From an uncultured delta proteobacterium (GTDB lineage Bacteria; Desulfobacterota; Desulfobacteria; Desulfobacterales; UBA2156), in contig CAVTQK010000024.1 in NCBI GenBank assembly GCA_963736855.1, positions 141,850 through 205,849 of the forward strand: a stretch of 64,000 nucleotides of DNA, in the 5' to 3' direction. Below are positions 63-64,000 of the stretch, in pieces (position 1 is the stretch's first letter; each line of letters opens with the position of its first letter). Made by a program: the position numbers and the translations under genes. The notes under the pieces were generated by a model. That model was not told the origin of the DNA, did no database searches, and was given only the letters and a program-made list of their open reading frames with translations.

Positions 63-1988
63 CTACCAGCCGCTTCCACCTCCGCCGCCTCCTCCGCCAC
101 CGGATGATCCTCCCCCTCCGCTTCCCGAACTCGAACCCGGGGCGGTAGCGGATGAGGCGATGGCTCCGGAAAAGGCCGATCCCAGGCTGGAAGCAAACCC
201 AGAGCTTCCGAGATCGCTCCAGGACCTTCCGCTATACCAGACAGGGGAATAGGCTTGCCCTTCTGTCCCGGCCCGGGCCAGCACATCCGAGAATTGCTCG
301 CTCCATTTATGTTCCACATCCAGGGCCAGGGCATATGGGAGATATTTTTCGAAAAGTTCCGGCGTCTTTTCAGGCGGATTGAGGACCCGCAACCGGGGCG
401 CTTCGGCCACGGAAAGATATTGTTTGAAACCTTCGATCTGGTCCATGATCTTTCGGCCGAGTAGGGTAGGGGCCTTGAGCAGGTGGTAAAAAAGGAGATT
501 CAAAAGGGCCATGGCCAGAAGGGCGATGACGGCTCTTATGGAAGTCATGTATGTCAGCATCGAGATTCCGAAGATTTCTCCGATGAGAAAAGGAATCGAG
601 AAAAGGGTGATGAACACGGCCGATCCTTTGGAAGAAATGCCGCCGCCCCGTGCGGCTTTCCAGCTGTTTTTGACATGAACGACCAGCGCCGTACACGCGA
701 TGGTCCAGCCCGTCAGCCACAACCCAATGAATCCGGCGCCGGGATTGGGCAGAGTAGCAACGGTGATGCCGACAAGGGTCAAAATGGTGATGGCGGCGCC
801 GGGTATAAAATAGTTTCTGTTTTTCAGGAAGTAGGTTTTTTCGAAATCGAGCTTCAGTCTTTTTTTGAAGGCTTCCACGGCGCTGCCGATCTTTGCGTGG
901 TTTTCATTTTTCAGCTCAAGCCGATCGGAAGTTCCGAAGAGCTTGTCGGCAAGGCCCTTTTCTCGGGGTGAAAGGGCAGAACTGTTTTTAGAGGTACGAA
1001 TCAACGAGTACTCCTTTTTCTTTTCCTCCACGATCTTCAGGTATCCCTTGACCGCCATATTGACAACAGCCGATGCTAGCGTCTTGTCATCATATCCCAT
1101 CCGCATCACATAACGCGCAGCGGCTGGTGTGATATCTTTGGGGGGTTCAAACAGGGGGATGATGGTTCCCTTCTCCGGATCCCGACCCACTTTGTACCAG
1201 GCCGCCACATAATAAATTAGCGATAAGGCAAGTCCGGCCAGAGAGACGGTCAGGAGCAGGTTGTCTCCGAAAAAATGTCCGGCTTTTTTGGAAGCGCTGG
1301 GTGCGGTGACCAGCCCTTTGGGCCAGGCTGCCGCAATGGTCAATCCCTCCCCGGGTCGCAACGGACGGGTGGTGGCAAACCGGATGGATTCATTCGTCTC
1401 AGAATCGATGACGAAATCTTTCTCCCGGGCACCCTGCGGACCGGTATAGGCCGCTCTTTGCAAGATATTACCGCCCTGGGGGATCTTTACCAGTGCTTCG
1501 GCCCTCTCAATTACAAATGTCCAGGCGTTTCCCGTGACGTTCCAGTAAAGTTCATCGTATCCCTCGAAAAAACCGAGTTGGCGGCCGGTCTTGTATGTGA
1601 TGGCATATGTATAATATCCGGGATTTAAATAAACATCCTTGTGGCCGATATAAATCTTTTTTCCGTTGGAAACATTTTCAACATGATACGGTTCGGATCG
1701 GCCGTCTTTCTGGATGGAGACGATCTGAAACGGCACCGTGACGGTTTCTCCGGTACGGCCTTTGTATGTCGTTGGAAAATCCCGAACAATGCCCCGCTTG
1801 ATTTCCGCTCCTGCGCAATAGACACGGATGGTCTCGGTCACGGTGATGGAGGCGTCCGGATGGACGGTTATCCGGCTATTAAAATCGGTGATCCTTTCAA
1901 CTTCATCGGAAAAGGCCGGGCATAAAGTCAGAATAAGAAAGACAACTATCCCCAGAAACCCCAAGACAGCTTTTTTACACATATGCAT
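63..1988 (-). CDS. DUF2207 family membrane protein
   Basis: 641-aa ORF with an N-terminal signal/TM segment, an ELYWNVTG motif, several TM helices, a YLPYALAL motif and the Gly/Ser-rich tail GGGGGGSGW typical of DUF2207; lies downstream of lemA. Confidence 0.9.
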   Translation of the reverse strand: MHMCKKAVLGFLGIVVFLILTLCPAFSDEVERITDFNSRITVHPDASITVTETIRVYCAGAEIKRGIVRDFPTTYKGRTGETVTVPFQIVSIQKDGRSEPYHVENVSNGKKIYIGHKDVYLNPGYYTYAITYKTGRQLGFFEGYDELYWNVTGNAWTFVIERAEALVKIPQGGNILQRAAYTGPQGAREKDFVIDSETNESIRFATTRPLRPGEGLTIAAAWPKGLVTAPSASKKAGHFFGDNLLLTVSLAGLALSLIYYVAAWYKVGRDPEKGTIIPLFEPPKDITPAAARYVMRMGYDDKTLASAVVNMAVKGYLKIVEEKKKEYSLIRTSKNSSALSPREKGLADKLFGTSDRLELKNENHAKIGSAVEAFKKRLKLDFEKTYFLKNRNYFIPGAAITILTLVGITVATLPNPGAGFIGLWLTGWTIACTALVVHVKNSWKAARGGGISSKGSAVFITLFSIPFLIGEIFGISMLTYMTSIRAVIALLAMALLNLLFYHLLKAPTLLGRKIMDQIEGFKQYLSVAEAPRLRVLNPPEKTPELFEKYLPYALALDVEHKWSEQFSDVLARAGTEGQAYSPVWYSGRSWSDLGSSGFASSLGSAFSGAIASSATAPGSSSGSGGGGSSGGGGGGGGGSGW

Positions 1989-1996
1989 CGTCCCTG

Positions 1997-2551
1997 TTAA
2001 AAAGAAACTTTAGGCACCGCGCGGTCGGCCTCATCTGTGATTTCGAAAAACTCCGCCTGCTTGAAGCCGTAGAAATTGGCCACGAGATTGCTGGGAAAAG
2101 ACTCCACCTGAATGTTATAATCCCTAACGGTCCCGTTATAGTAACGACGAGCCATCTGGATCTGTTCTTCGAGCTGGGAAAGCTGTCCCTGGAGATCCAA
2201 GAAATTCTGATTGGCCTTCAGGTCCGGATATCCCTCGGCCACGGCGAAAAGATTTGCCAGAGACCGGGAGAGAGCGCCTTCCACTTTCGCCCTTTCTCCC
2301 ACATTCTGGGCACCCATGCTCTGAGCCCGCAGTTCGGTGACCTTTTCCAGGACGCCGCGCTCGTGCCCCATGTATCCCTTGACGGTCTCTAATAAGTTGG
2401 GGATGAGATTGGCCCGTCGCTTGAGCTGGACTTCGATGCCGCTCCAACCCTCTTTGACCATATTCCGATTTTTCACCAGGCTGTTGTAAATCGCAACCAG
2501 GTAAACACCGATCACCAGAACGATACCGATGAAAATCAGCAGGGTAATCAT
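1997..2551 (-). CDS. lemA: LemA family protein
   Basis: N-terminal TM followed by YNSLV, QLKRRANLIPNL, YPDLKANQNF, ARRYYN and FPSNLVA motifs; ATG at 2551 preferred over the upstream TTG. Confidence 0.95.
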   Translation of the reverse strand: MITLLIFIGIVLVIGVYLVAIYNSLVKNRNMVKEGWSGIEVQLKRRANLIPNLLETVKGYMGHERGVLEKVTELRAQSMGAQNVGERAKVEGALSRSLANLFAVAEGYPDLKANQNFLDLQGQLSQLEEQIQMARRYYNGTVRDYNIQVESFPSNLVANFYGFKQAEFFEITDEADRAVPKVSF

Positions 2552-2651
2552 GAAGAGGCTCCTTTCATCAAAACTCAGGCTTTTCAACCGCGAAATAAAA
2601 TAGAAAAGCCCTTAGATGATAAAAAAAATCGGTAATGAAGACCACAATAAT

Positions 2652-3227
2652 TTATCGATCCACACAATCAAACTTTGTTTTACCCACCCTCCATGTAGCC
2701 GGTCTGTGGCCATATGATTGATTTCGTTTCTCATCAAACAATCGAGAGCCGGTGCTCTTGATGTTCTCGGCGATGAAAACCAATTTTACGGTTTTTCCCT
2801 CGTCGCTGTGGAGGAATATCTCAATATGGAGACGCTTGCAACTTTCTCTTCCCTCTATACGGCCGATGACTCGGATACCATTTGGATCGGGATTTACGCT
2901 CACCATAAATATACGATAGGATTGGGGAGGCGTGTCGACTGTTTTTTTTAACAAGGTGCTTTTCTTGGATTTTTTGCCGGGGCTGCGTAACGGCGCCACA
3001 ATTTCCATATTTTCCTCGGCATCGGTTTCTCCTATGTTTTTAGGGGAATGATCGATTTCGGCTTCTTTTTCAATTCGTTGAGCATCTGAAGGTGGGCATG
3101 TATTGCTGAAATGCCTCACACCATTTTCATCAGTCCAGTGATAAAGCTGAGGTTGAACTGTCAACGGAAAGATTACAATCACAACAGACAAGGAAATGAC
3201 CATGAATATTTTTATTTGCAAAATCAA
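2652..3227 (-). CDS. DUF4124-domain exported protein
   Basis: Hydrophobic N-terminus followed by LYHWTDENGVRHFSNTCPP, matching the DUF4124 motif. Confidence 0.75.
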   Translation of the reverse strand: MILQIKIFMVISLSVVIVIFPLTVQPQLYHWTDENGVRHFSNTCPPSDAQRIEKEAEIDHSPKNIGETDAEENMEIVAPLRSPGKKSKKSTLLKKTVDTPPQSYRIFMVSVNPDPNGIRVIGRIEGRESCKRLHIEIFLHSDEGKTVKLVFIAENIKSTGSRLFDEKRNQSYGHRPATWRVGKTKFDCVDR

Positions 3228-3589
3228 ATCTTTTGGCGCCCCGGGTTTAATGGACCATCAATAAGATCATGAGATCATTTCCGACCGATCATGCAAAACA
3301 AAAGTGCGATAAAAAATCAGAATTTTATCTATTATGGATTTGTTTTAGATAGTGCCTATCTGATTTATCTTTCGGGTGTCAAGATGTATGACTTATCCGG
3401 CAGATGCTGAAAGCTTCCGGTAATATCTGAGGATTTTCCTTGATTATGCGAAAACAGAGTATTTTTAGCCCAATTCTAAAGGTCTCCGTTATCGGGATTG
3501 TAATGGTAATGTTCCCTATCATAGTTCGTTGATTACTCTTCTTATCAAAGGGTTTTCAATTCGGCAAATCATTCCGCTGCAGGCAAGAC

Positions 3590-4045
3590 CTTCCCCTGCA
3601 TGCTTCAACCGGAGTTGACGGATGTTCAGTTCCGGAAAAACTGGTCGCGCCTGATCCAAAATATTTACCCGGTTGAATTTCCCGAAGGGGACCCTATTCA
3701 ACCGGGTGAATGAGGTCAACCTTTTAATCTGCCCCAAGTGCCGGGGAAATACAACGACATCCCTCATCCTTCCGCAGAGAATTCCATCGCCGACCTGGTT
3801 TATCCCATGGATGCTTATTTATAAAAAAACCCGTCGGCGTTGATCCGTCGAGCTGTGTCCGTATCCGCCAAAATACCGGCCTTTTGCCGGTCATTTCCGT
3901 ATTGACAGCCGATCTTCCTTTGGGTATCGATTTATCCGAACGGCACGGCAACGGACCGTTCCCATATTCTGGGGTGTAGATAAGGACGGAACACAATTCT
4001 TTTTCACGCTCTATCCGCACCCAAAAAAAAGGGATTCTTATCAAT
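3590..4045 (+). mobile_element. IS91/ISCR-type element 3' remnant, copy 1 (transposase C-terminus plus oriIS-like end)
   Basis: Reads FRKNWSRLIQNI(Y)EVNLLICPKCRG once a 43-nt insert is removed, matching the WARLIxKIYEVDPLxCPxC C-terminal motif. 3751-4045 aligns with 9331-9622 and both end GGATTCTTATCAAT. Confidence 0.7.
3667..3707. repeat. Palindromic insertion with a 12-bp perfect stem
   Basis: ACCCGGTTGAAT (3667-3678) pairs with ATTCAACCGGGT (3696-3707); it splits a TAT codon of the transposase remnant. Confidence 0.8.
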
Positions 4046-4126
4046 TCAATCATTTCTCTACAGCAAGGAGTTGGTCAAGAACGCGACATAGACCGGATTG
4101 GACCCTGCGTGAGCGAGGAGGTAAGC

Positions 4127-4918
4127 ATGGAATCGGCCGGCGTGAAGGAAATGGCGGAGTTTATCAGCAACAATTTGCGGCTCAAGACCTTTCCCCTGGC
4201 GGTCAAGTTTCTCAAAGACCGTAAAGATTTTCCAGTCAAGACCAGGCAACCCTCGGTGGTGCTGGGAAAACGCGTCAGCATTTGTCAGGGAGTCACCATG
4301 GCGCGGGTGTATGGTTGGACCGTGGGACTCACTCGTGACGACCTGATCTGCGTGCCCGCCATGATCGCTTTCGGATTCAGCGGCGCAGCGGACCCCGCTG
4401 AATCACTCACGGGACTCTTCTGCGAAGTGGACTTTGCCAGCGATCGCGACGGTGCGGCCCGGGAAGTGGCGGCCATCACCCGCCTGGAGAACCAGGAGTA
4501 CGACGCCCTGGTGTTGGCGCCCCTCGAAAAAGGCCTTTTTGAACCGGATACTGTGGCTATTTATGGGAATCCAGCGCAGATGATGCGCCTGATCATGGCG
4601 CTGGTCTATATGGAGAAACGCCGCATCGACGGCAACTTCGGCGGCAAGGTCGAGTGCACCGAATACTTGCTCGCTCCGTTCAAGACCAGGTCACCGCGCG
4701 TCGTTATTCCGGGAATGGGGGATCGGATCTTTTCAATGACCCAAGATGATGAAATGGTGTTGTCCATCCCGGGTAGTCTTCTGGGAAAGCTGGTTAGAGG
4801 TCTTGAGGTATCCGGTAAGAAGATCGGGGCGCGCTACCCGGTCACCTTCTATCAGAACTTCGAACCGGAATTTCCCAAGGCTCATAAGGAACTCGGCAAA
4901 GTCCTGGGCATTTTTTAG
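4127..4918 (+). CDS. DUF169 family protein
   Basis: PLAVKF, SICQ..MAR..G, C..A..AFGF, NPAQMMRL, C and PGMGDRIF..DDEMV motifs; RBS GAGGAGG before ATG 4127. Confidence 0.85.
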   Translation: MESAGVKEMAEFISNNLRLKTFPLAVKFLKDRKDFPVKTRQPSVVLGKRVSICQGVTMARVYGWTVGLTRDDLICVPAMIAFGFSGAADPAESLTGLFCEVDFASDRDGAAREVAAITRLENQEYDALVLAPLEKGLFEPDTVAIYGNPAQMMRLIMALVYMEKRRIDGNFGGKVECTEYLLAPFKTRSPRVVIPGMGDRIFSMTQDDEMVLSIPGSLLGKLVRGLEVSGKKIGARYPVTFYQNFEPEFPKAHKELGKVLGIF

Positions 4919-6319: not shown

Positions 6320-7522
6320 ATGTGGACTCGCCGCCCAGCGCAATTCGTCGTGCTTATTATGTTTATGACGCTCAGTGGAAGTTGTGCAACCGTGAAGACC
6401 ATCGGAGAGAGCACTAAAAAAGTCGTCAAAGGTAAGGATATCGACACAAAGGGCTTGGAAAAGGCCATAGCGGAAGATACGAAGAAAATCGAAGCCCAGT
6501 TGCAACAATTGCGCCGCAAGTTCGAGGAAGCCCTCGCGAAGCTCGAGGCCAACGTGCAGAAACACTGGGGCAAGAAGGACACCAAGGTCGCCACACGCAC
6601 CGTGTATGTGAAATATACTCAGAATTACACGAACCGTGTCGTCACCGACTTCGACCACGGCTTGCTCACTGTCGAGACCCTGGACGACAAGAATCCGCAG
6701 GATAGTCTCAAGGCCTCCATCGTCGCCGCGCTCCTCACATCGAACGACCCTGCGTCCGTGGACCTTTTCTCTGACAAGGATGTCACCTTGGATTCAAACC
6801 GTACTCCTTATCTTTATGGCCTCGTGCTTGACAACAACGGCAAGCCAATCCGCACGCGTAAGCAGGCGGAAAATTTCGCAAGTTTTCTTGTGCCAAATAA
6901 AATCCAAACGCGTGTGGTAAAATCAGAGCAGGGCGAAAAGAAGACATTATTCGTGAAGCTCGCTATGGTCAAGAACTTTGAAGCGAAGGGGGCGGAGCGT
7001 TACCGCAGTAGCGTGCTCAAATACTCTGCACAATATCAAGTCAGCCCGAGCCTCGTGTTTGCGATCATTCGGACCGAAAGTAACTTCAACCCGTTTGCCG
7101 TGAGCGGAGCGCCCGCCTATGGACTGATGCAGCTCGTTCCCACGAGCGGTGGCCGTGCTGCCTACCGACGGGTGGAGGGTGTGGACCAGATTCCAACGGT
7201 CGAGCATCTATTCGACCCTGAACGAAACATTGAGCTCGGCACAGCATATTTGAGCGTGCTCAATGACAACGAGTTCCGCGCTGTCGATAGCCATAATTCG
7301 CGCGACTACTGCGTCATCGCGGCTTACAACACGGGCCCGTCCAACGTAACCCGTACATTTGCGAGGGACAAGAACGAGGCTCTCAAGGTCATCAACAGCC
7401 TTAATCCCTCGGAGTTGTTCGACCGGATGAGAACATCACTGCCCCGCCAGGAAACACGTCGATATATCGAGAAGGTCACGAGCTATCGAAAACAGTTCGT
7501 GGACACTGCGGCTGTCCAATAA
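6320..7522 (+). CDS. mltC: MltC-like lytic murein transglycosylase (DUF3393 + SLT), lipoprotein-like
   Basis: YVKYTQNY, ESNFNPFAVS, AYGLMQLVP, NIELGTAYL, AYNTG and ETRRY motifs; Cys after the signal peptide. Confidence 0.9.
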   Translation: MWTRRPAQFVVLIMFMTLSGSCATVKTIGESTKKVVKGKDIDTKGLEKAIAEDTKKIEAQLQQLRRKFEEALAKLEANVQKHWGKKDTKVATRTVYVKYTQNYTNRVVTDFDHGLLTVETLDDKNPQDSLKASIVAALLTSNDPASVDLFSDKDVTLDSNRTPYLYGLVLDNNGKPIRTRKQAENFASFLVPNKIQTRVVKSEQGEKKTLFVKLAMVKNFEAKGAERYRSSVLKYSAQYQVSPSLVFAIIRTESNFNPFAVSGAPAYGLMQLVPTSGGRAAYRRVEGVDQIPTVEHLFDPERNIELGTAYLSVLNDNEFRAVDSHNSRDYCVIAAYNTGPSNVTRTFARDKNEALKVINSLNPSELFDRMRTSLPRQETRRYIEKVTSYRKQFVDTAAVQ

Positions 7523-58155: not shown

Positions 58156-59052
58156 TCATCCCCGGGGATGATACTGCCGGTGAATCTCCTTGAGGCGGTC
58201 CCGGGTCACGTGGGTATAGATCTGGGTGGTGGAGATATCCGCATGCCCCAGCATGGTCTGCACCGAGCGCAGGTCCGCCCCTCCTTCCAGGAGATGGCTG
58301 GCAAAGGAATGGCGGAAGGTATGGGGCTTGATGGTCTTTTGGATTCCGGTTTTCAGGGCGTACCGCTTGAGGATCTTCCAGAAGCCTTGCCGCGTCAGCG
58401 GTTTTCCTCCCGGCCCTAAAAAGAGGTAAGGACTCATCCGCCCTTTCGATAATAGCGGCCTTGTCCGGGCGAGATACTGATTCACTTTTTCCCGTGCAAA
58501 CCGACCGATGGGAACCAGGCGCTCCCGTGATCCCTTTCCGAGAACCCGGACAAGACCCACCTCCGTGTTGACATTTCTTATCCCCAACGTCACCAGCTCC
58601 GAAACGCGCAGTCCTGCCGCATAAAGCAGCTCCAGCATGGCCGCATCGCGGCTCCCCCGCGGGCTTTTCGGGTCCGGCGCATCCAGAATCTGTTTGACTT
58701 CCTCCACGGATAAAACATCCGGCAATTTCAAGGCGCCCTTGGGCAGGTCCACGATCCGTGTCGGATCGTGGGAGATCCGGTTTTCCTGAACGGCGAAACG
58801 GAAAAAACCCCGGAGGGCGACCAGGCTCCTGGCCCGGGAACGGGCCGAAATCCCCTCGTCCCGCAGGACAATGAGGTGTTTTAAAATCATCGGGGTATCG
58901 ATATCGGACAGGCCGGAGGCACCGCTTTTCATGGCGAACGCCAAAAACCGACCGATATCCCGGCTGTAGGCTTCGATGGTCTTTTTCGCAAGCCCCTTTT
59001 CCACGGTCAGATAATTCAGATACCGGTCGACTTCTTCATCCATCGATGCCAC
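58156..59052 (-). CDS. xerD: Site-specific tyrosine recombinase XerD
   Basis: LYAAGLRVSEL, GKGSRERLVP, TRQGFWK and PHTFRHSFASHLLEGGADLRSVQ.MLGHADISTTQIYTH motifs. Confidence 0.95.
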   Translation of the reverse strand: MASMDEEVDRYLNYLTVEKGLAKKTIEAYSRDIGRFLAFAMKSGASGLSDIDTPMILKHLIVLRDEGISARSRARSLVALRGFFRFAVQENRISHDPTRIVDLPKGALKLPDVLSVEEVKQILDAPDPKSPRGSRDAAMLELLYAAGLRVSELVTLGIRNVNTEVGLVRVLGKGSRERLVPIGRFAREKVNQYLARTRPLLSKGRMSPYLFLGPGGKPLTRQGFWKILKRYALKTGIQKTIKPHTFRHSFASHLLEGGADLRSVQTMLGHADISTTQIYTHVTRDRLKEIHRQYHPRG

Positions 59053-59119
59053 AGGATGGGTCCTTTAAAATCTTGAAGCGAAAATTGAGCCTGATGCCGC
59101 ATTTCATGAAATATGCGGG

Positions 59120-60106
59120 CTAACCGATTTTAAGATCGTCCAGGGGACTCGTCACGCCGTATCCGCCCTGTTGCAGCACATGGGTATATATCATGGTGGT
59201 GGATACGTCGTTGTGCCCTAATAGCGCCTGAATGGTTCGGATGTCATGCCCCTTTTCCAGCAAATGGGTCGCAAAGCTGTGCCGAAAGGTGTGAGCGCTG
59301 ATTTTCTTGTCAAGCCCGATTTTTGAAACAGCGACCTTGATGGCCTTATTGATGACGCTCGGATCGATGTGATGCCTTCGAATTTTTTCGCTTCGTGGGT
59401 CTTTGGATCGGGCGCTTGCCGGGAAAACGTATTGCCATCCCCATTGTTTGGCGGCGTTGGGATACTTGCGGGACAGGGCATGCGGTAAAAAGACCTCCCC
59501 GTAGCCCGCCGAAAGATCTTGTTGATGAATCGTTTTGACTCTTGCCAGATGTTCCAAAAGAAAGGGGACAACGGAGACAGGGAACGGCGTCACACGATCC
59601 TTGTCGCCCTTTCCGGACCGGACCGTCACGGTTTTGTATTTTAAATCCATATCCTGAACACGCAGCCGTATCGTCTCCGATATCCGCAGACCGCTGCCGT
59701 ACATGAGTTTGACTGCCAATTGGGAGGTATTGCTCATGGCGGCAATGACGGCGGCGACCTCTTCCCGGCTCATCACTACCGGAATATGTTCCTTTTTTCG
59801 CGAACGAACGGCCTGAATTTCTCCATCCAGGGCAACCCTGAGGATCTTTTTGTATAAAAATACCAGGGCATTCATGGCCTGGTTCTGGGTTGCGGGGGAT
59901 ATATTTTCTTCAACGGCAAGGTGAGTCAAAAAGGACTCGATCTTTTTTTCACCATCGGATAGATCTTGGCGGGATTGCATCCGGTGGAAAAAAACGAATC
60001 GCTTGATCCAATCGCAATAGGTTCGTTCCGTATGAATCGAATAATGATGCAATCGCATATAATTACGAACCTGATCCAGCAGTTTTTGATCTTTTTCGGT
60101 TGACAT
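59120..60106 (-). CDS. intI: Integron integrase
   Basis: HYSIHTERTY.DWI, TQNQAMNAL, the integron-specific insertion VFLPHALSRKYPNAAKQWGWQYVFP..DPR..RRHH, and HTFRHSFATHLL..LLGH.DV.TT.IY. Confidence 0.97.
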   Translation of the reverse strand: MSTEKDQKLLDQVRNYMRLHHYSIHTERTYCDWIKRFVFFHRMQSRQDLSDGEKKIESFLTHLAVEENISPATQNQAMNALVFLYKKILRVALDGEIQAVRSRKKEHIPVVMSREEVAAVIAAMSNTSQLAVKLMYGSGLRISETIRLRVQDMDLKYKTVTVRSGKGDKDRVTPFPVSVVPFLLEHLARVKTIHQQDLSAGYGEVFLPHALSRKYPNAAKQWGWQYVFPASARSKDPRSEKIRRHHIDPSVINKAIKVAVSKIGLDKKISAHTFRHSFATHLLEKGHDIRTIQALLGHNDVSTTMIYTHVLQQGGYGVTSPLDDLKIG

Positions 60107-60128
60107 AAGAAATTATTTTCCATATATC
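60100..60128 (+). promoter_or_regulatory. Putative cassette promoter Pc
   Basis: TTGACA-N17-TATATC overlapping the intI start codon and pointing toward attI. Confidence 0.55.
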
Positions 60129-60269
60129 CTGTTGTAATTTAATTGAAATATTATTAAAATAGCATCGGATCGGATTTTTAATTCAATAATATTATCAAGG
60201 AAATGTTTCCCGATATTCCAACTATCAGGGCGAATTGACCTGATAATCAATGGTTCAAGTAAGATTGCA

Positions 60270-60301
60270 TCAGGAAACATAATATATTCAAATAGTTAAA
60301 T
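60270..60301 (+). other. Putative attI site (core GTTAAAT at 60295-60301)
   Basis: GTTRRRY at the end of the AT-rich intI upstream region, immediately before the next ORF. Confidence 0.6.
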
Positions 60302-60323
60302 GCATACTGCTTTCTATGTTGGA

Positions 60324-61535
60324 ATGAAGACAGATTCTACTTCCGATATTCATCAGCACTGTGAAGTTGCAGACATTTTCAGATTGTATGGAGAAGTATA
60401 TCGTTCAAAAAACGGCATGACAAAAAAGCAATATAAGGTGATGACGGCCATTCAGGGATGCCGAACCAGCGAGTATGGCTACCATGTAGATTCATGCGAC
60501 CGATGCGGCTTCACCGAAAGCCGTTTCAACTCATGCCGGGACAGGCATTGCCCCAAATGCCAGGGCGTTTCCAGGCACAAATGGGTCAACTCACGCATCA
60601 AGGATATGCTTCCGGTATCCTACTATCACATTGTTTTCACACTACCCCATTTCCTCAATCCGATCACTCTCTACAACAAACGATTGGTCTACAATTTACT
60701 GCTGTCGAGTGCTTCCGACACGCTGCTGTCTTTCGGCCGAGATCCGAAGTGGCTGGGCGGGGAGATCGGATTTTACGGCATTTTGCACACCTGGGGCCAG
60801 ACGCTATGGCCGCATCCGCACATCCATTTCATCGTTCCCGGCGGCGCACTGACCCCTGACGGGCATTGGGTTGAGCCGAGATATAAAGATCAATTCCTAT
60901 TTCCGGTGAAGGCACTTTCCAGGGTTTTTCGAGGCAGATGCATCGAAGGACTGAAAACCGCCTATTATCGCGGTAAGTTGGTTTTGCCCCAGGACCTGAG
61001 CGAATTGAGACGAACCGATTTATTTGAAAGTTGGATCGACACCCTGGTTTCACAAGACTGGGTCATCTATTGTAAGCCTCCCTTCTCCGATGCCAAACAC
61101 GTGATTCGCTATATAGGCCGCTATACCCATCGTGTCGCTATCAGCAACCACCGCATCATCGATATTCATGACGGACAAGTTCACTTCTGGTACAAAGATT
61201 ACCGTTCTGATAATATCACCCATCAGGAGATGCGCCTGAGTGGCAGCGAGTTTATCCGCCGATTTCTTTTTCATGTGCTTCCCGACAGGTTTCATAAGAT
61301 CCGGCACTATGGATTCCTGGCCAATGGACGCAGCAAAGACATGATCGCCCGGATCCGGAAAATATTGAGAATCGGACAAACAGGCGATGGAATCCCTACC
61401 GATCCATTCAGACCCAGGTGTCCCAAGTGCAACAAGGGCTTCCTGAACCCTGTAACGATCATGAATCGATGGGGACAGAATATTGCCGGGTGGATCCGAT
61501 TTGTTAAAATAGGCTATGCTTTTGATACATCATGA
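60324..61535 (+). CDS. IS91-family HUH/Y2 transposase, intact (ORF open from 60300)
   Basis: Zn-binding CRT..C..C..NSCRDRHCPKCQ, H.VFTLP, HUH region LHTWGQ..HPHIH, Y2 motif YIGRY, and EFIRRFL.HVLP..F.KIRHYG. Confidence 0.93.
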   Translation: MKTDSTSDIHQHCEVADIFRLYGEVYRSKNGMTKKQYKVMTAIQGCRTSEYGYHVDSCDRCGFTESRFNSCRDRHCPKCQGVSRHKWVNSRIKDMLPVSYYHIVFTLPHFLNPITLYNKRLVYNLLLSSASDTLLSFGRDPKWLGGEIGFYGILHTWGQTLWPHPHIHFIVPGGALTPDGHWVEPRYKDQFLFPVKALSRVFRGRCIEGLKTAYYRGKLVLPQDLSELRRTDLFESWIDTLVSQDWVIYCKPPFSDAKHVIRYIGRYTHRVAISNHRIIDIHDGQVHFWYKDYRSDNITHQEMRLSGSEFIRRFLFHVLPDRFHKIRHYGFLANGRSKDMIARIRKILRIGQTGDGIPTDPFRPRCPKCNKGFLNPVTIMNRWGQNIAGWIRFVKIGYAFDTS

Positions 61536-61588
61536 GGATCCGGCAAAGACCAAAGGTACTTTCCACCATCTAAAATAGGTGGAAGTGT

Positions 61589-61645
61589 ATTGAACCTATA
61601 AGGATTGACACGACCTGGAAGGTCGTTTTCAATCCATTGTTCAAG
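61589..61645 (+). other. attC-like hairpin
   Basis: ATTGAAC...GTTCAAG with pairing TTGAAC/GTTCAA, GGATTGA/TCAATCC and ACGACC/GGTCGT; 57 bp, 54 nt after the transposase stop. Confidence 0.6.
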
Positions 61646-61912
61646 AAGCCCGGATAGGGCGCACTATTTATTAAGGGTGATGCTTGGAGAGGTATCAGGG
61701 AGGGTTTAGCCGGAGTATGGTGTTGCCGATAAAGAATCGGAGCCGGCCGTTATAATCGAATCGTTTATTTTCAGAATCAGCTAAGAATCGACCGTTCTTT
61801 GACAAGTAGAACCGGACAGCGCATCGTTTTGGCAGCCGCAGGGCGCAGTTATCCTGTGCCGCCGGATTATCAGGCAGCGAATTGATGAAGATAAGCCAAC
61901 CTTAAGTCCTGT

Positions 61913-63010
61913 TTATCCGTGCCCTGCCGGGGCCATCATAAACGGCAGCACCGAATAGAGGTATTTCAGTTTGCCGCCGCAATGCGGGCAGATTGGCGGT
62001 GTGTGCGGCGCAAAGGATGCTTTGCGGCAGGCAATTTCAAACCCATAAGCTATTTGTATTAGCGTGCGGATCTTATTCAACGGAACAGAGGAACAAGGGT
62101 GCAAAAAGCCATAGTAACGGACCTTCATAAAGCCGGTTGGCAGAACGTGCTGTAAGAAGCGTCTTAGAAATTCCATGACATCAAGGGACATGGTGCGCCA
62201 GCGCCGGCTATCTTTTTTCTTATAACGAATGAAGACGTTGCGATCTTGTACCTTAACGATGCGGCGATTTGAGATGGCGACCTTAAACACATAGGGGGCC
62301 AGATACCTGACGCTGTGCTCGCTGCTGCCCACGGGTTGGCAGTTCACATTCCAGTCGATTTTCCACACCTCAGCGGGAATGGAACTTAAAAGATCTGTTT
62401 TTTTGATTTCATCACGAAATTTGGCTTTAAATATTTTCGACATGGCCCGGACCGGCAGATAAAAATCGATGCGAGCGCAATGCCAGGTGTTTTCTTTTGT
62501 GGACAAAGCGCCGGCGGCGACGATGTAGTGGATATGGGGATGGTACTGCAGCTGACGGCCCCAGGTGTGCAGTACGCCGAAGAAACCTGGAAGATCGCCG
62601 CCGATGAATTTTTCATCGGCGGACAGTTTTTTGAGCGTATCGGCGAAGAAGCTTTGAACAGTGGCCGCATAGCAGCAGCCGCTGGTTGCTGCGGATAAAG
62701 CGGCGTAATTGTTCAGGGACGGTAAAGGTGATCATGAAATGATGGACCGGGCAATTGTCGCTCCAATTGCGTTTCAAGCCATTGCCGGGTTTTATGATGC
62801 TGACAGGAGGGACAATGGCGGTTGCCGCAGGATCGAACACCGAATGGGAGCTGTCGCATTTATCACACTGGTAAATGGTATGCCGCAGCTTTCGGTGCGG
62901 CAATCGATGATGGCATCGATGACTTTTCGTGTTCATTTGGCATGGCATCGCCAAAGCGATGGATATACTCAGGTGCGTAGTTCTGGAAGATATCTTTAAT
63001 CGTTAGTCAT
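61913..63010 (-). pseudogene. IS91-family transposase with multiple frameshifts
   Basis: Fragments in several frames: Zn-finger Cys cluster, HFMITFTVPE, LHTWGRQLQYHPHIH, YLAPY and EFLRRFLQHVLPTGFMKVRYYG. Confidence 0.85.
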
Positions 63011-63881
63011 GGTCATCTCCCTTCATCAGGTCGTTGATGATGCCGTAGGCGCGTTCATGTCCTTGTGTGGTCAGGTGCAGATAGACCATGGTTGAGTTCA
63101 GGCTGTGATGTCCCAGATATTGCTGGATACGGCGGATATTGACGCCGGCCTCCAGCAGATGGGTGGCATAGCTGTGGCGCAGGGTGTGGATGGAGACACG
63201 TTTTTTGAATTTAAGCTGTTTCAATACCCGACGCAGGGCGCCTTGAACGGAGGATTTAGTTCATGGGGATGTTGGCGGTAGGTCCTTCTTTGCCGCTGCG
63301 GCCCAGCCGAGGGAAGATCCAGGCTGGATTTCGATGGAGCTTCCAGTAAGTCTCTTAAAATGTGAGGGTCGACTTCGGAAGGGGACATATCGGTCTTTAG
63401 CGCCTTTGCCGCGATGGACGTGAATGCGCATGCGATCGCTGTCGATATCGCTGACCTGAAGATAGAGGGCTTCATGCAGTCTGAGGCCGCAGGAATAGAC
63501 GGTGGTCAGATATGCTTTGTTTTGAGGGGTTTTTACCGCATCAAGGATGGCGCACACCTCGTCGACGCTCAGGACGGTAGGCAGCCGTTGTTCGCGTTTG
63601 GCATGGATCAGTTCCAGGGTGTGCCAGTCACGCTTGAGCACATTAATAAAAAAGAATTTGATGCCGCTGTAGCAGATGCGCATGGTGGCAGCAGACCATT
63701 TGTCGACGTTTCTGCGGTGCAGGAAATAATCCTGAAGTTGCATTTCGCTGATTTGATCGGGGGTTTTGTTGTAAAAATCAACGAGCATGCGAACGGATCT
63801 TGTATAGCATTGCTGAGTACGCTCGCTCATCCCGGCAAGTTGCAGGGCTCTCATGGAGTTTTGGTAATAGTCTTTCGTCAT
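63003..63881 (-). pseudogene. Tyrosine recombinase (phage integrase family) with frameshifts
   Basis: YSCGLRLHE and GKGAKDRYVP in one frame; [21 protein letters not shown] in another. Confidence 0.85.
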
Positions 63882-64000
63882 AGCCTCTCTCCTTTCATTT
63901 GAAGGGTTTATTGGATGGGGATCCGATATGAGAGGTATGACAGAGAATTATAGAAGCTTTTGCAACCTGCCCGGGATGACCTTATTCGCGAGGACTACTG

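What the first reader, a model, noticed from the sequence alone, without database searches (positions are those of the whole stretch)
60295..61645. An intact IS91-type HUH transposase appears packaged as the first integron cassette
Seen: intI is followed by a Pc-like promoter, then GTTAAAT (60295). A complete Y2/HUH transposase ORF starts within 30 nt, with no room for its own promoter or partner recombinase. ATTGAAC, 54 nt after its stop, opens a 57-bp attC-like hairpin. ATTGAAC is a 6/7 complement of GTTAAAT, the relationship expected between the two ends of one cassette. Known: IntI recombines folded single-stranded attC sites, and IS91 transposases act on single-stranded DNA at hairpin ends. 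Inference: a rolling-circle transposase occupies the best-expressed cassette position, either as a selfish element that moves as a cassette or as a co-opted enzyme that generates ssDNA cassette intermediates.
Basis: partly seen in the sequence, partly recalled or inferred. Interest (0 to 1): 0.88.

Follow-up and report, generated by a model that had tools for sequence, protein, structure and literature searches.

The report
Rolling-circle transposase gene as integron cassette
An intact IS91-type transposase gene sits exactly where the first gene cassette of a chromosomal integron belongs, and its closest relatives elsewhere are built and placed like true cassettes, but the hairpin behind it belongs to a second, inverted jumping gene.

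Summary
The integrase gene is a true integron integrase. The transposase ORF (60300-61535) is intact IS91 family.

- **Entry site.** It ends at GTT 60253-60255, not at GTTAAAT 60295. A 20-nt motif ending in that GTT also lies beside a 71%-identical integrase in another genome. It ends at GTT in 5 of 5 copies.
- **Cassette build.** The transposase unit starts at that GTT and ends in ATTGAAC (61589-61595). All four closest relatives (56-60% identity) lack a recombinase of their own. They share the left end GTTCRAGTAAG. Three carry a full attC whose first box complements the unit's first bases (7/7). One is about the tenth cassette of a complete integron.
- **Intact attC elsewhere.** Public contigs at least 98.9% identical show this unit with its own attC.
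- **The hairpin.** The 57-bp hairpin is real (z -6). From 61593 on, however, it is the end of a decayed, inverted IS91-plus-recombinase element with other copies in this genome. It does not score with my attC model.

So the cassette reading is supported and the hairpin assignment is not. Whether the integrase, the transposase or both move the unit is inferred, not shown. This scan has already noted the recombinase-carrying relatives on other DNA.

The parts
59120..60106 (-). intI, integron integrase (328 aa)
   Evidence: TIGR02249 438.3 bits against a cut-off of 265, full length. It is 71% identical over 317 aa to the integrase of the complete integron on G061:C8.
60197..60255 (+). attI: conserved site ending ...CCTGATAATCAATG|GTT; the crossover GTT is 60253-60255
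   Evidence: The same terminal motif lies beside the G061 intI, at G000:C14 and C16, and in the metagenome locus L115. Conservation stops at GTT in 5 of 5 copies. Different cassettes follow the GTT elsewhere. Public contigs break at 60255/60256.
60253..60279 (+). Conserved left end of the transposase unit: GTTCAAG-TAAGA, a short stem-loop, then TCAGGAA. It resembles an IS91-family terIS.
   Evidence: GTTC-AGTAAG is invariant in 6 of 6 aligned left ends: 5 recombinase-free units and the C9 copy of the second element. The published IS91-family terIS is a 5'-GTTC cleavage site plus one subterminal palindrome (PMC13181058, passages).
60300..61535 (+). tnpA, intact IS91-family HUH/Y2 transposase (411 aa)
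   Evidence: NF033538 at 411 bits; PF14319 plus PF04986. Catalytic and zinc motifs are conserved in the 13 aligned proteins.
61556..61575 (+). Conserved 3' non-coding motif (ACTTTnCACCATnTA), a candidate oriIS recognition sequence
   Evidence: Invariant letters in 4 of 4 aligned right ends. Its function is inferred.
61589..61595 (+). ATTGAAC: the degenerate R'' box of the unit's own attC. It is all that is left of that attC in the window.
   Evidence: It complements the unit's start GTTCAAG at 6 of 7 positions. Relatives have CTTGAAC or CTCGAAC, 7 of 7 with covariation. A run X2 contig continues from 61584 into a 13-nt perfect complement of the left end and then an L'' box.
61593..61646 (-).
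   Evidence: It is shared with copies at C9 and C19 from base 61593 on. The extra unpaired base is in the 5' arm of the minus strand. There is no match to attC model R1.
61593..64000 (-). Second element: a decayed IS91-family element with its own tyrosine recombinase. The recombinase lies in pieces at 63881-63003 and the transposase in pieces at 62954-61913. It is inverted and runs off the contig end.
   Evidence: Pfam and NCBIfam hits to the pieces. There are stops in the transposase N-terminal part. Copies lie at C9:682110-683761 and C19:48723-49147.

Best explanation
This is a chromosomal integron (intI plus attI). Its first cassette belongs to a distinct lineage of IS91-family transposase genes that carry no recombinase of their own and are built and placed as integron cassettes.

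A member of this lineage starts at the G|TT crossover of attI or of a preceding attC. It carries the transposase gene between conserved end motifs that resemble terIS and oriIS. It ends in an attC of the local array type, whose R'' box complements the unit's own first bases.

The most likely mechanism has two steps.
1. The host integron integrase inserts and excises the unit like any other cassette.
2. The element's own HUH transposase copies it out by rolling-circle replication as a bottom-strand single-stranded circle. That is the strand the integrase needs folded. The result would be a replicative, selfish cassette.

In this window the unit's attC has been cut at its R'' box by a second, inverted IS91 element that carries its own recombinase and homes to attC sites. 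The hairpin behind the gene is that element's end, and this copy is probably stuck.

Shown here: anatomy, placement, conservation and orientation. Inferred: which enzyme acts at which step.
For: 1. **True integrase and a defined attI.** The terminal motif recurs beside a 71%-identical intI in G061. Conservation ends at GTT in 5 of 5 copies.
2. **The unit starts at that GTT.** Contigs of runs X1 and X5 leave the window at 60255/60256, with other DNA behind attI.
3. **Shared left end.** All 4 closest relatives (L037, L038, L115, L116; 56-60% identity) share GTTCRAGTAAG, 45-70 nt before the ORF.
4. **Own attC in relatives.** The 3 relatives whose right end is on the contig carry R''-spacer-L''...L'-spacer-R' directly after the gene. 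R'' is a 7/7 complement of the left 7-mer, with A/G to T/C covariation. Model R1 was built from 13 other attCs. It finds the three at the expected place and strand: 20.6, 18.3 and 15.5 bits, E 0.018 to 0.36. Only 16 matches reached E <= 10 in 107,574 bases.
5. **Inside a complete integron.** L038 lies about 8.5-10.9 kb from attI on G061:C8, co-oriented with the array. My crude finder gave 19 hits there, some overlapping and a few probably chance. Neighbouring cassettes obey the start/R'' rule 7/7.
6. **Intact attC in read data.** Run X2 holds the unit at 98.9-99.3% identity. It is preceded by the 3' end of an attC and followed by its own intact attC start.
7. **A separate lineage.** The five recombinase-free units group together (SH-like support 91). 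They lie outside the 51-row clade (99*) that holds 41 of the 42 recombinase-linked rows.
8. **The transposase looks functional.** It is intact and its motifs are conserved across the lineage. Both non-coding ends are conserved.
9. **Strand polarity fits.** For IS91 only the bottom-strand single-stranded circle is the functional intermediate (PMC13181058: abstract and passages).
Against: - In the window itself only the R'' box remains (6/7). The rest of the attC was not found anywhere in the assembly, so the window copy cannot be shown to be a complete cassette.
- The E-values of the three relatives' attCs with my home-made model are marginal (0.018-0.36). Two of the three bottom strands do not fold better than shuffles (z -1.9 and -0.7).
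- The ends also fit the published IS91-family plan: GTTC at terIS, palindromes at oriIS, and an adjacent GTTN target. The transposase alone could therefore explain the placement.
- The lineage rests on five units, plus contigs of two runs. One of those runs may be the sample the genome came from.
- Support for the clade is 91, below the starred level. The tree used FastTree on 61 rows, after 85 of 127 recombinase-linked rows were dropped by thinning.
- No circle junction was seen. Contigs cannot show rare forms.
Confidence: 0.6

Rival explanations
1. The unit is an autonomous IS91-family insertion sequence. It homes to the GTT of attI and attC sites through its own HUH transposase. The attC-like 3' end is simply its oriIS, and the integron integrase plays no part.
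For: - The published family plan matches. It has a 5'-GTTC cleavage site and a subterminal palindrome at terIS, palindromes at oriIS, and an adjacent target tetranucleotide GTTC/CTTG. Here the flanks read GTTA, GTTC and GTTA.
- The recombinase-carrying relatives in this genome home to attC sites. Four junctions lie at an xxxx|AAC box.
- In multi-copy relatives from Acidobacteria the left end complements the segment before the 3' hairpin. A circle junction that looks like an attC is therefore a general trait of the wider clade.
Against: - The recombinase-free units lie in array orientation at the R' or attI crossover in all 3 cases where orientation can be read (window, L038/G061, L115). The recombinase-carrying element lies inverted at R'' in all 3 of its copies in this genome; the fourth junction, in X2, shows only the box.
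- Their 3' sites are of the same sequence family as neighbouring attCs and vary in length (82-112 nt) as attCs do. The other element's hairpin is idiosyncratic and scores nothing with R1.
Confidence: 0.22
2. The transposase is a co-opted helper of the integron. Expressed from the first position, it nicks at GTTC-type boxes and makes single-stranded copies of cassettes in trans for the integrase.
For: - It sits in the first position, next to attI.
- The left-end 7-mer GTTCRAG equals the L'' box of attCs of these arrays.
- The bottom-strand polarity of IS91 intermediates matches the integrase's substrate.
Against: - In G061 the same kind of unit is about the tenth cassette, and its gene is interrupted there.
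- Other intI loci of this genome have no such gene next to them.
- The promoter is not above chance.
- Conserved cis ends on the unit itself point to action in cis.
Confidence: 0.1
3. This is an ordinary IS91 insertion that happens to lie next to intI, and the likeness to a cassette is chance.
For: There is a single copy in this genome. GTTC is a common tetranucleotide.
Against: The same junction logic holds in five independent contexts, with covariation, and the unit's left boundary coincides with the attI boundary.
Confidence: 0.04

Closest known systems
IS91 family insertion sequences (IS91, IS801, IS1294, IS1294b; ISCR relatives)
   Same: - An HUH/Y2 transposase with an N-terminal zinc domain.
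- A left end with 5'-GTTC and a short subterminal palindrome.
- A right end with palindromes, followed by a GTTN tetranucleotide.
- No target duplication.
   Different: - The right end is a full attC of the local array type, and the unit lies between attI/attC crossovers in array orientation.
- It is single-copy in this genome.
- The best plasmid-borne relatives are below 60% identical.
IS91-family elements with an upstream tyrosine recombinase
   Same: - A related transposase at 42-49% identity.
- The same left end, GTTCAAGTAAG.
- A left end complementary to the segment before the 3' hairpin.
   Different: - Those elements carry their own recombinase: 146 of 165 loci after hand correction.
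- They have an idiosyncratic hairpin.
- In this genome they land inverted at the R'' box. The unit studied here has no recombinase, has a canonical attC and lies forward.
Integron gene cassettes
   Same: - The unit starts at G|TT.
- An attC sits at the 3' end.
- R'' complements the first bases.
- It is co-oriented with the array.
- It occurs at different array positions in two integrons of one class.
   Different: - The cargo is a transposase with conserved cis motifs at both ends.
- Ordinary cassettes have no conserved 5' leader beyond the core site.
IS1111-attC insertion sequences and group IIC-attC introns (recalled; the introns also appear in the listing of PMC3001079)
   Same: These are mobile elements specialised on integron recombination sites.
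   Different: They interrupt attC sites, as the second element here does. They are not themselves cassettes with their own attC.

Membership tests
Integron (platform) | Integron-type tyrosine recombinase IntI | tested here: met
   TIGR02249 438.3 bits against a cut-off of 265, full length.
Integron (platform) | An attI site next to intI where cassettes enter at GTT | tested here: met
   The motif is conserved beside the intI of G061. In 5 of 5 copies conservation ends at GTT and different cassettes follow. Recombination itself was not tested.
Integron (platform) | Pc promoter reading into the cassettes | tested here: inconclusive
   One sigma-70-like site (60132-60160) against 2.6 +/- 1.3 in shuffles.
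Integron gene cassette (the transposase unit) | Begins at the G|TT crossover of attI or of the preceding attC | tested here: met
   - Window and L115: attI|GTTC.
- L038: a preceding attC found by eye (ACCTAAC...CAGC|GTTCGAG).
- X2: ...TCAAC TCAGAT|GTTCAAG.

Integron gene cassette (the transposase unit) | Ends in its own attC (R''-L''...L'-R' imperfect hairpin) | tested here: not met
   - Window copy: only R'' (61589-61595) remains, and the rest was not found in the assembly.
- Relatives L038, L037 and L115: met, at 20.6, 18.3 and 15.5 bits with R1.
- An X2 contig shows the intact start.
Integron gene cassette (the transposase unit) | R'' complements the cassette's own first bases | tested here: met
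   6/7 in the window; 7/7 in L037, L038 and L115, with covariation; 13/13 in the X2 contig.
Integron gene cassette (the transposase unit) | Excised and inserted by IntI | not testable with these tools
   Needs recombination assays.
attC site (the 57-bp hairpin 61589-61646) | Scores as an attC and belongs to the upstream cassette | tested here: not met
   No match at E <= 10 with R1, filters off. The sequence from 61593 on is shared with the second element's copies. R1 is home-made from 13 sites; IntegronFinder's model was not available.
IS91 family | HUH/Y2 transposase with a zinc-binding N-terminus | tested here: met
   NF033538 at 411 bits against a cut-off of 125; PF04986 and PF14319. The motifs HPHIHF and YIGRY are present.
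IS91 family | terIS: a 5'-GTTC (or CTCG) cleavage site plus one subterminal palindrome | tested here: met
   GTTCAAG-TAAGA plus a 3-4 bp stem-loop, conserved. The definition comes from PMC13181058. Cleavage was not tested.
IS91 family | oriIS palindrome(s) abutting a GTTC/CTTG target tetranucleotide | tested here: inconclusive
   Relatives end ...G|TTA, TTC, TTA. The window's right end is lost in the second element.

The most novel reading that the evidence does not exclude
A lineage of IS91 rolling-circle transposases has become a self-copying integron cassette. The transposase would spin off bottom-strand single-stranded circles whose ter-ori junction is an attC, and the integron integrase would paste them in.

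If true, rolling-circle transposons and integron cassettes are mechanistically linked. IS91-type one-ended replication next to an attC-bearing end would then be a concrete, testable route by which new genes become joined to an attC, which bears on the origin of cassettes.
Probability: 0.15. Interest if true: 0.9.

Novelty: new variant of a known kind. Interest (0 to 1): 0.7.

Why it matters
How integron cassettes are made and multiplied is an old open question. Integron integrases act on folded single strands, but the source of those strands is usually put down to conjugation or replication.

Here a cassette's cargo is an enzyme known to make bottom-strand single-stranded circles of its own element (PMC13181058). 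That offers a direct and testable link. It also extends the range of IS91-family life styles beyond the attC-homing, recombinase-carrying forms that this scan has met repeatedly.

In seven searches of the paper library I found no description of an IS91-family transposase gene as an integron cassette. Subscription journals and ISfinder/TnPedia texts were not searchable.

Tried and rejected
- **GTTAAAT (60295) as the cassette start.** Rejected: relatives and contigs put the start at 60253.
- **The 57-bp hairpin as this unit's attC.** Rejected.
- **The 60-nt motif as an attC or as the left end of the transposase unit.** Rejected. It has no AAC box in the C14 and C16 copies. Its conservation runs outward from the unit and ends at GTT.
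- **A search for the missing part of the attC, or the second element's far end, elsewhere in the assembly.** Nothing found.
- **Rfam scan of 59000-64000 at E <= 1.** No match.
- **Close relatives among plasmids.** None at 60% identity or above. Among 60 related genomes the best was 48%.
- **RNA evidence.** No RNA holder was listed among the sequencing runs.
- **Circle junction.** No joint linking the two ends of the unit appeared among the laid contigs, and contigs cannot show rare forms.
- **Tree building.** The first tree run (146 rows) did not finish in time. It was repeated with FastTree on 61 rows.
- **Crude attC finder.** It missed several sites that I then found by eye or with R1. Its background rate is 17 sites in 180 kb, against 0.38-1.25 per kb in arrays.
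- **Earlier notes of this scan, searched by place (near) and by the transposase sequence.** Nothing.

Full report
**What is at the coordinates**

The minus-strand gene 59120-60106 is a true integron integrase. It matches TIGR02249 at 438.3 bits against a cut-off of 265, over the full profile. It lies next to a XerD-type gene (58156-59052).

The plus-strand ORF 60300-61535 (411 aa) is a complete IS91-family transposase. It matches NF033538 at 411 bits and holds PF14319 plus PF04986. The histidine motif HPHIHF, the tyrosine pair in YIGRYTHR and the cysteine clusters are conserved in the 13 proteins I aligned.

GTTAAAT at 60295 and ATTGAAC at 61589 are both present. The stretch 61589-61646 folds far better than shuffles: -15.1 kcal/mol, z -6.2. 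The promoter-like site between intI and the ORF is not above chance, with 1 site found against 2.6 +/- 1.3 expected.

**The hairpin belongs to a neighbour**

The DNA from 61593 onward recurs in the same genome. One copy is at C9:682161-683761 (89% identity) and a fragment is at C19:48723-49147 (85%). In three-way alignment the shared part begins at the AAC of ATTGAAC.

To the right of the hairpin, on the minus strand, lie a broken IS91-family transposase gene (62954-61913) and a broken tyrosine recombinase gene (63881-63003). The contig ends inside this element at window base 64000. The hairpin is therefore the 3' terminal hairpin of a second, inverted element that carries its own recombinase.

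Earlier notes of this scan describe this kind of element as homing to attC sites, including decayed copies elsewhere in this genome. My data agree with them.
- Its end abuts an xxxx|AAC box in all four junctions seen: window ATTG|AAC, C19 CCCT|AAC, C9 GTCT|AAC and run X2 ACCT|AAC.
- In C19 that box is the 7/7 complement of the resident cassette's start.
- In C9 the rest of the resident attC lies on the element's other side, on the opposite strand. My attC model finds it there at 25.9 bits.

**The true left boundary, and attI**

The four closest relatives of the transposase are 56-60% identical: L037, L038, L115 and L116. All have GTTCRAGTAAG 45-70 nt before the ORF. The window has it at 60253-60263.

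Directly before it the window carries a roughly 60-nt motif ending ...CCTGATAATCAATG|GTT. The motif recurs at G000:C14, at G000:C16 and in L115. It also recurs next to the intI of a complete integron on G061:C8, the contig that holds L038. That intI scores 441 bits and is 71% identical to the window's.

In all five copies conservation stops at GTT and different DNA follows. Behind the C14 and G061 copies come ordinary cassettes. Each has an R'' box that complements the preceding R' box. In G061 the first four are 7/7. In C14 two are 7/7 and one is 6/7. Contigs of runs X1 and X5 follow the window up to 60255/60256 and then differ.

I therefore read 60197-60255 as attI, with the crossover in GTT 60253-60255. 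The transposase unit is the first cassette.

**Relatives are built as cassettes**

L037, L038 and L115 carry a full attC plan directly after a conserved 3' motif (ACTTTACACCATATA):
- an R'' box (CTTGAAC or CTCGAAC);
- a 5-nt spacer;
- an L'' box (GTTCRAGCGG, or GTTAGAGACGG in L115);
- a variable centre;
- an L' box (GCCGCTYAAC);
- a 5-nt spacer;
- GTT.

R'' complements the unit's first seven bases 7/7. It covaries with them: A with T in L037, and G with C in L038 and L115.

I built a covariance model (R1) from 13 other attC sites of the G061 and G000 arrays. The L stem of that alignment shows compensatory changes in 8 of 10 pairs. R1 finds the three sites at the expected place and strand, at 20.6, 18.3 and 15.5 bits (E 0.018, 0.07 and 0.36). 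Only 16 matches reached E <= 10 in 107,574 bases, and five of those are training sites. These scores are modest.

The L038 bottom strand folds canonically with one bulged base (z -3.3). The bottom strands of L037 and L115 do not beat shuffles.

In G061 the unit lies about 8.5-10.9 kb from attI, co-oriented with the array. There its gene is interrupted by about 0.8 kb. In L037 the next cassette obeys the rule 7/7 (GTTAAAA, then TTTTAAC).

Run X2 holds the window's unit at 98.9-99.3% identity. It is preceded by ...TCAAC TCAGAT, which is the 3' end of an attC. After 61584 it continues into a 13-nt perfect complement of the left end and then CAGTC GTTCGAGCGG, which is an intact attC start without the second element. 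Run X1 also leaves the window at 61584. One of these runs may be the sample the genome came from.

**The window copy is damaged**

The window keeps only a degenerate R'' box (6/7). Nothing resembling the missing part was found in the assembly. The hybrid hairpin gives no match with R1, even with filters off.

**Lineage**

After hand correction of 7 loci with overlapping genes, 146 have a co-oriented recombinase directly upstream. Ten have none, and 9 are too close to a contig end to tell.

In a FastTree of 61 rows (every third recombinase-linked row kept), the five recombinase-free units group together with SH-like support 91. They lie outside the 51-row clade (99*) that holds 41 of the 42 recombinase-linked rows.

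**Mechanism**

The ends also match the published IS91-family plan. That plan has a 5'-GTTC cleavage site plus a palindrome at terIS, palindromes at oriIS, and an adjacent GTTC/CTTG target (PMC13181058, passages read). That paper also reports that only the bottom-strand single-stranded circle of IS91 is inserted (abstract and passages). It is established knowledge, recalled here, that integron integrases recombine the folded bottom strand of attC.

Four features favour the integrase as the inserting enzyme:
- the forward orientation;
- the placement at attI and R' crossovers;
- an attC of the local array type, with variable length;
- occurrence at different positions in two integrons of one class.

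Two features favour a retained role in cis for the transposase, most simply copying the unit out as the strand the integrase needs:
- an intact, conserved transposase;
- conserved non-coding ends.

I give this two-enzyme reading 0.6. I give 0.22 to an autonomous homing IS, 0.1 to a co-opted helper that acts in trans, and 0.04 to chance.

**Novelty**

Seven paper searches found no description of an IS91-family transposase gene as an integron cassette. The recombinase-carrying, attC-homing relatives were noted many times by this scan on other DNA.

I class the finding as a new variant of a known kind.

Noticed in passing
window 61593-64000 (-); G000:C9:682110-683761; G000:C19:48723-49147: A decayed IS91-family element with its own tyrosine recombinase, in three copies in this genome; a fourth junction of the same kind is seen in run X2. 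Each end abuts the R'' box of a resident attC; in the three genome copies the element lies inverted relative to that attC. Its left end (GTTCAAGTAAG plus a palindrome) matches that of the recombinase-free unit.
   Followed up: partly
G000:C14 about 67240-67301 (-) and G000:C16 about 7105-7169 (-): Two more copies of the attI motif with no integrase gene nearby. The C14 copy heads a minus-strand cassette array that obeys the start/R'' rule. Its first cassette is a 152-aa protein that I take, from recall of the sequence and without a family search, to be SnoaL-like. Why attI copies stand without intI is unexplained.
   Followed up: partly
G000:C21:744805-745752, C22:4704-5633, C13:157249-158180: Three further integron-integrase genes above the TIGR02249 cut-off in the same genome, one of them split. 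The C21 and C13 genes have attC-like sites beside them.
   Followed up: partly
window 58156-59052 (-): A XerD-type recombinase gene (TIGR02225, 367 bits) lies directly beside intI.
   Followed up: no
L040 (Methanosarcinaceae MAG contig) 380-4146: A 50%-identical transposase relative without an adjacent recombinase. It is preceded by an attC-like 3' end and followed by two sites that score with my attC model (25.5 and 24.1 bits) on the same strand. This may be a cassette array in an archaeal bin.
   Followed up: partly
L057/L059/L055, L042-L044, L098-L101, L085-L089, L097/L102: In multi-copy elements of Acidobacteria and Alphaproteobacteria, mostly recombinase-carrying (the L085-L089 family has none), the left 8-12 nt complement the segment before the 3' hairpin. 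In the families that end in GTT the flanks look alike (...TTACCGC|GTTTATCAGG-like), which suggests site-specific insertion.
   Followed up: partly
L038 2178-3001: In the G061 integron the cassette-borne transposase gene is interrupted by about 0.8 kb between residues 57 and 53 of the alignment. The insert was not identified.
   Followed up: no
G000:C9:431089: A solitary copy of the left-end motif (GTTCAAGTAAGCCGC...), with no transposase and no attC beside it.
   Followed up: no
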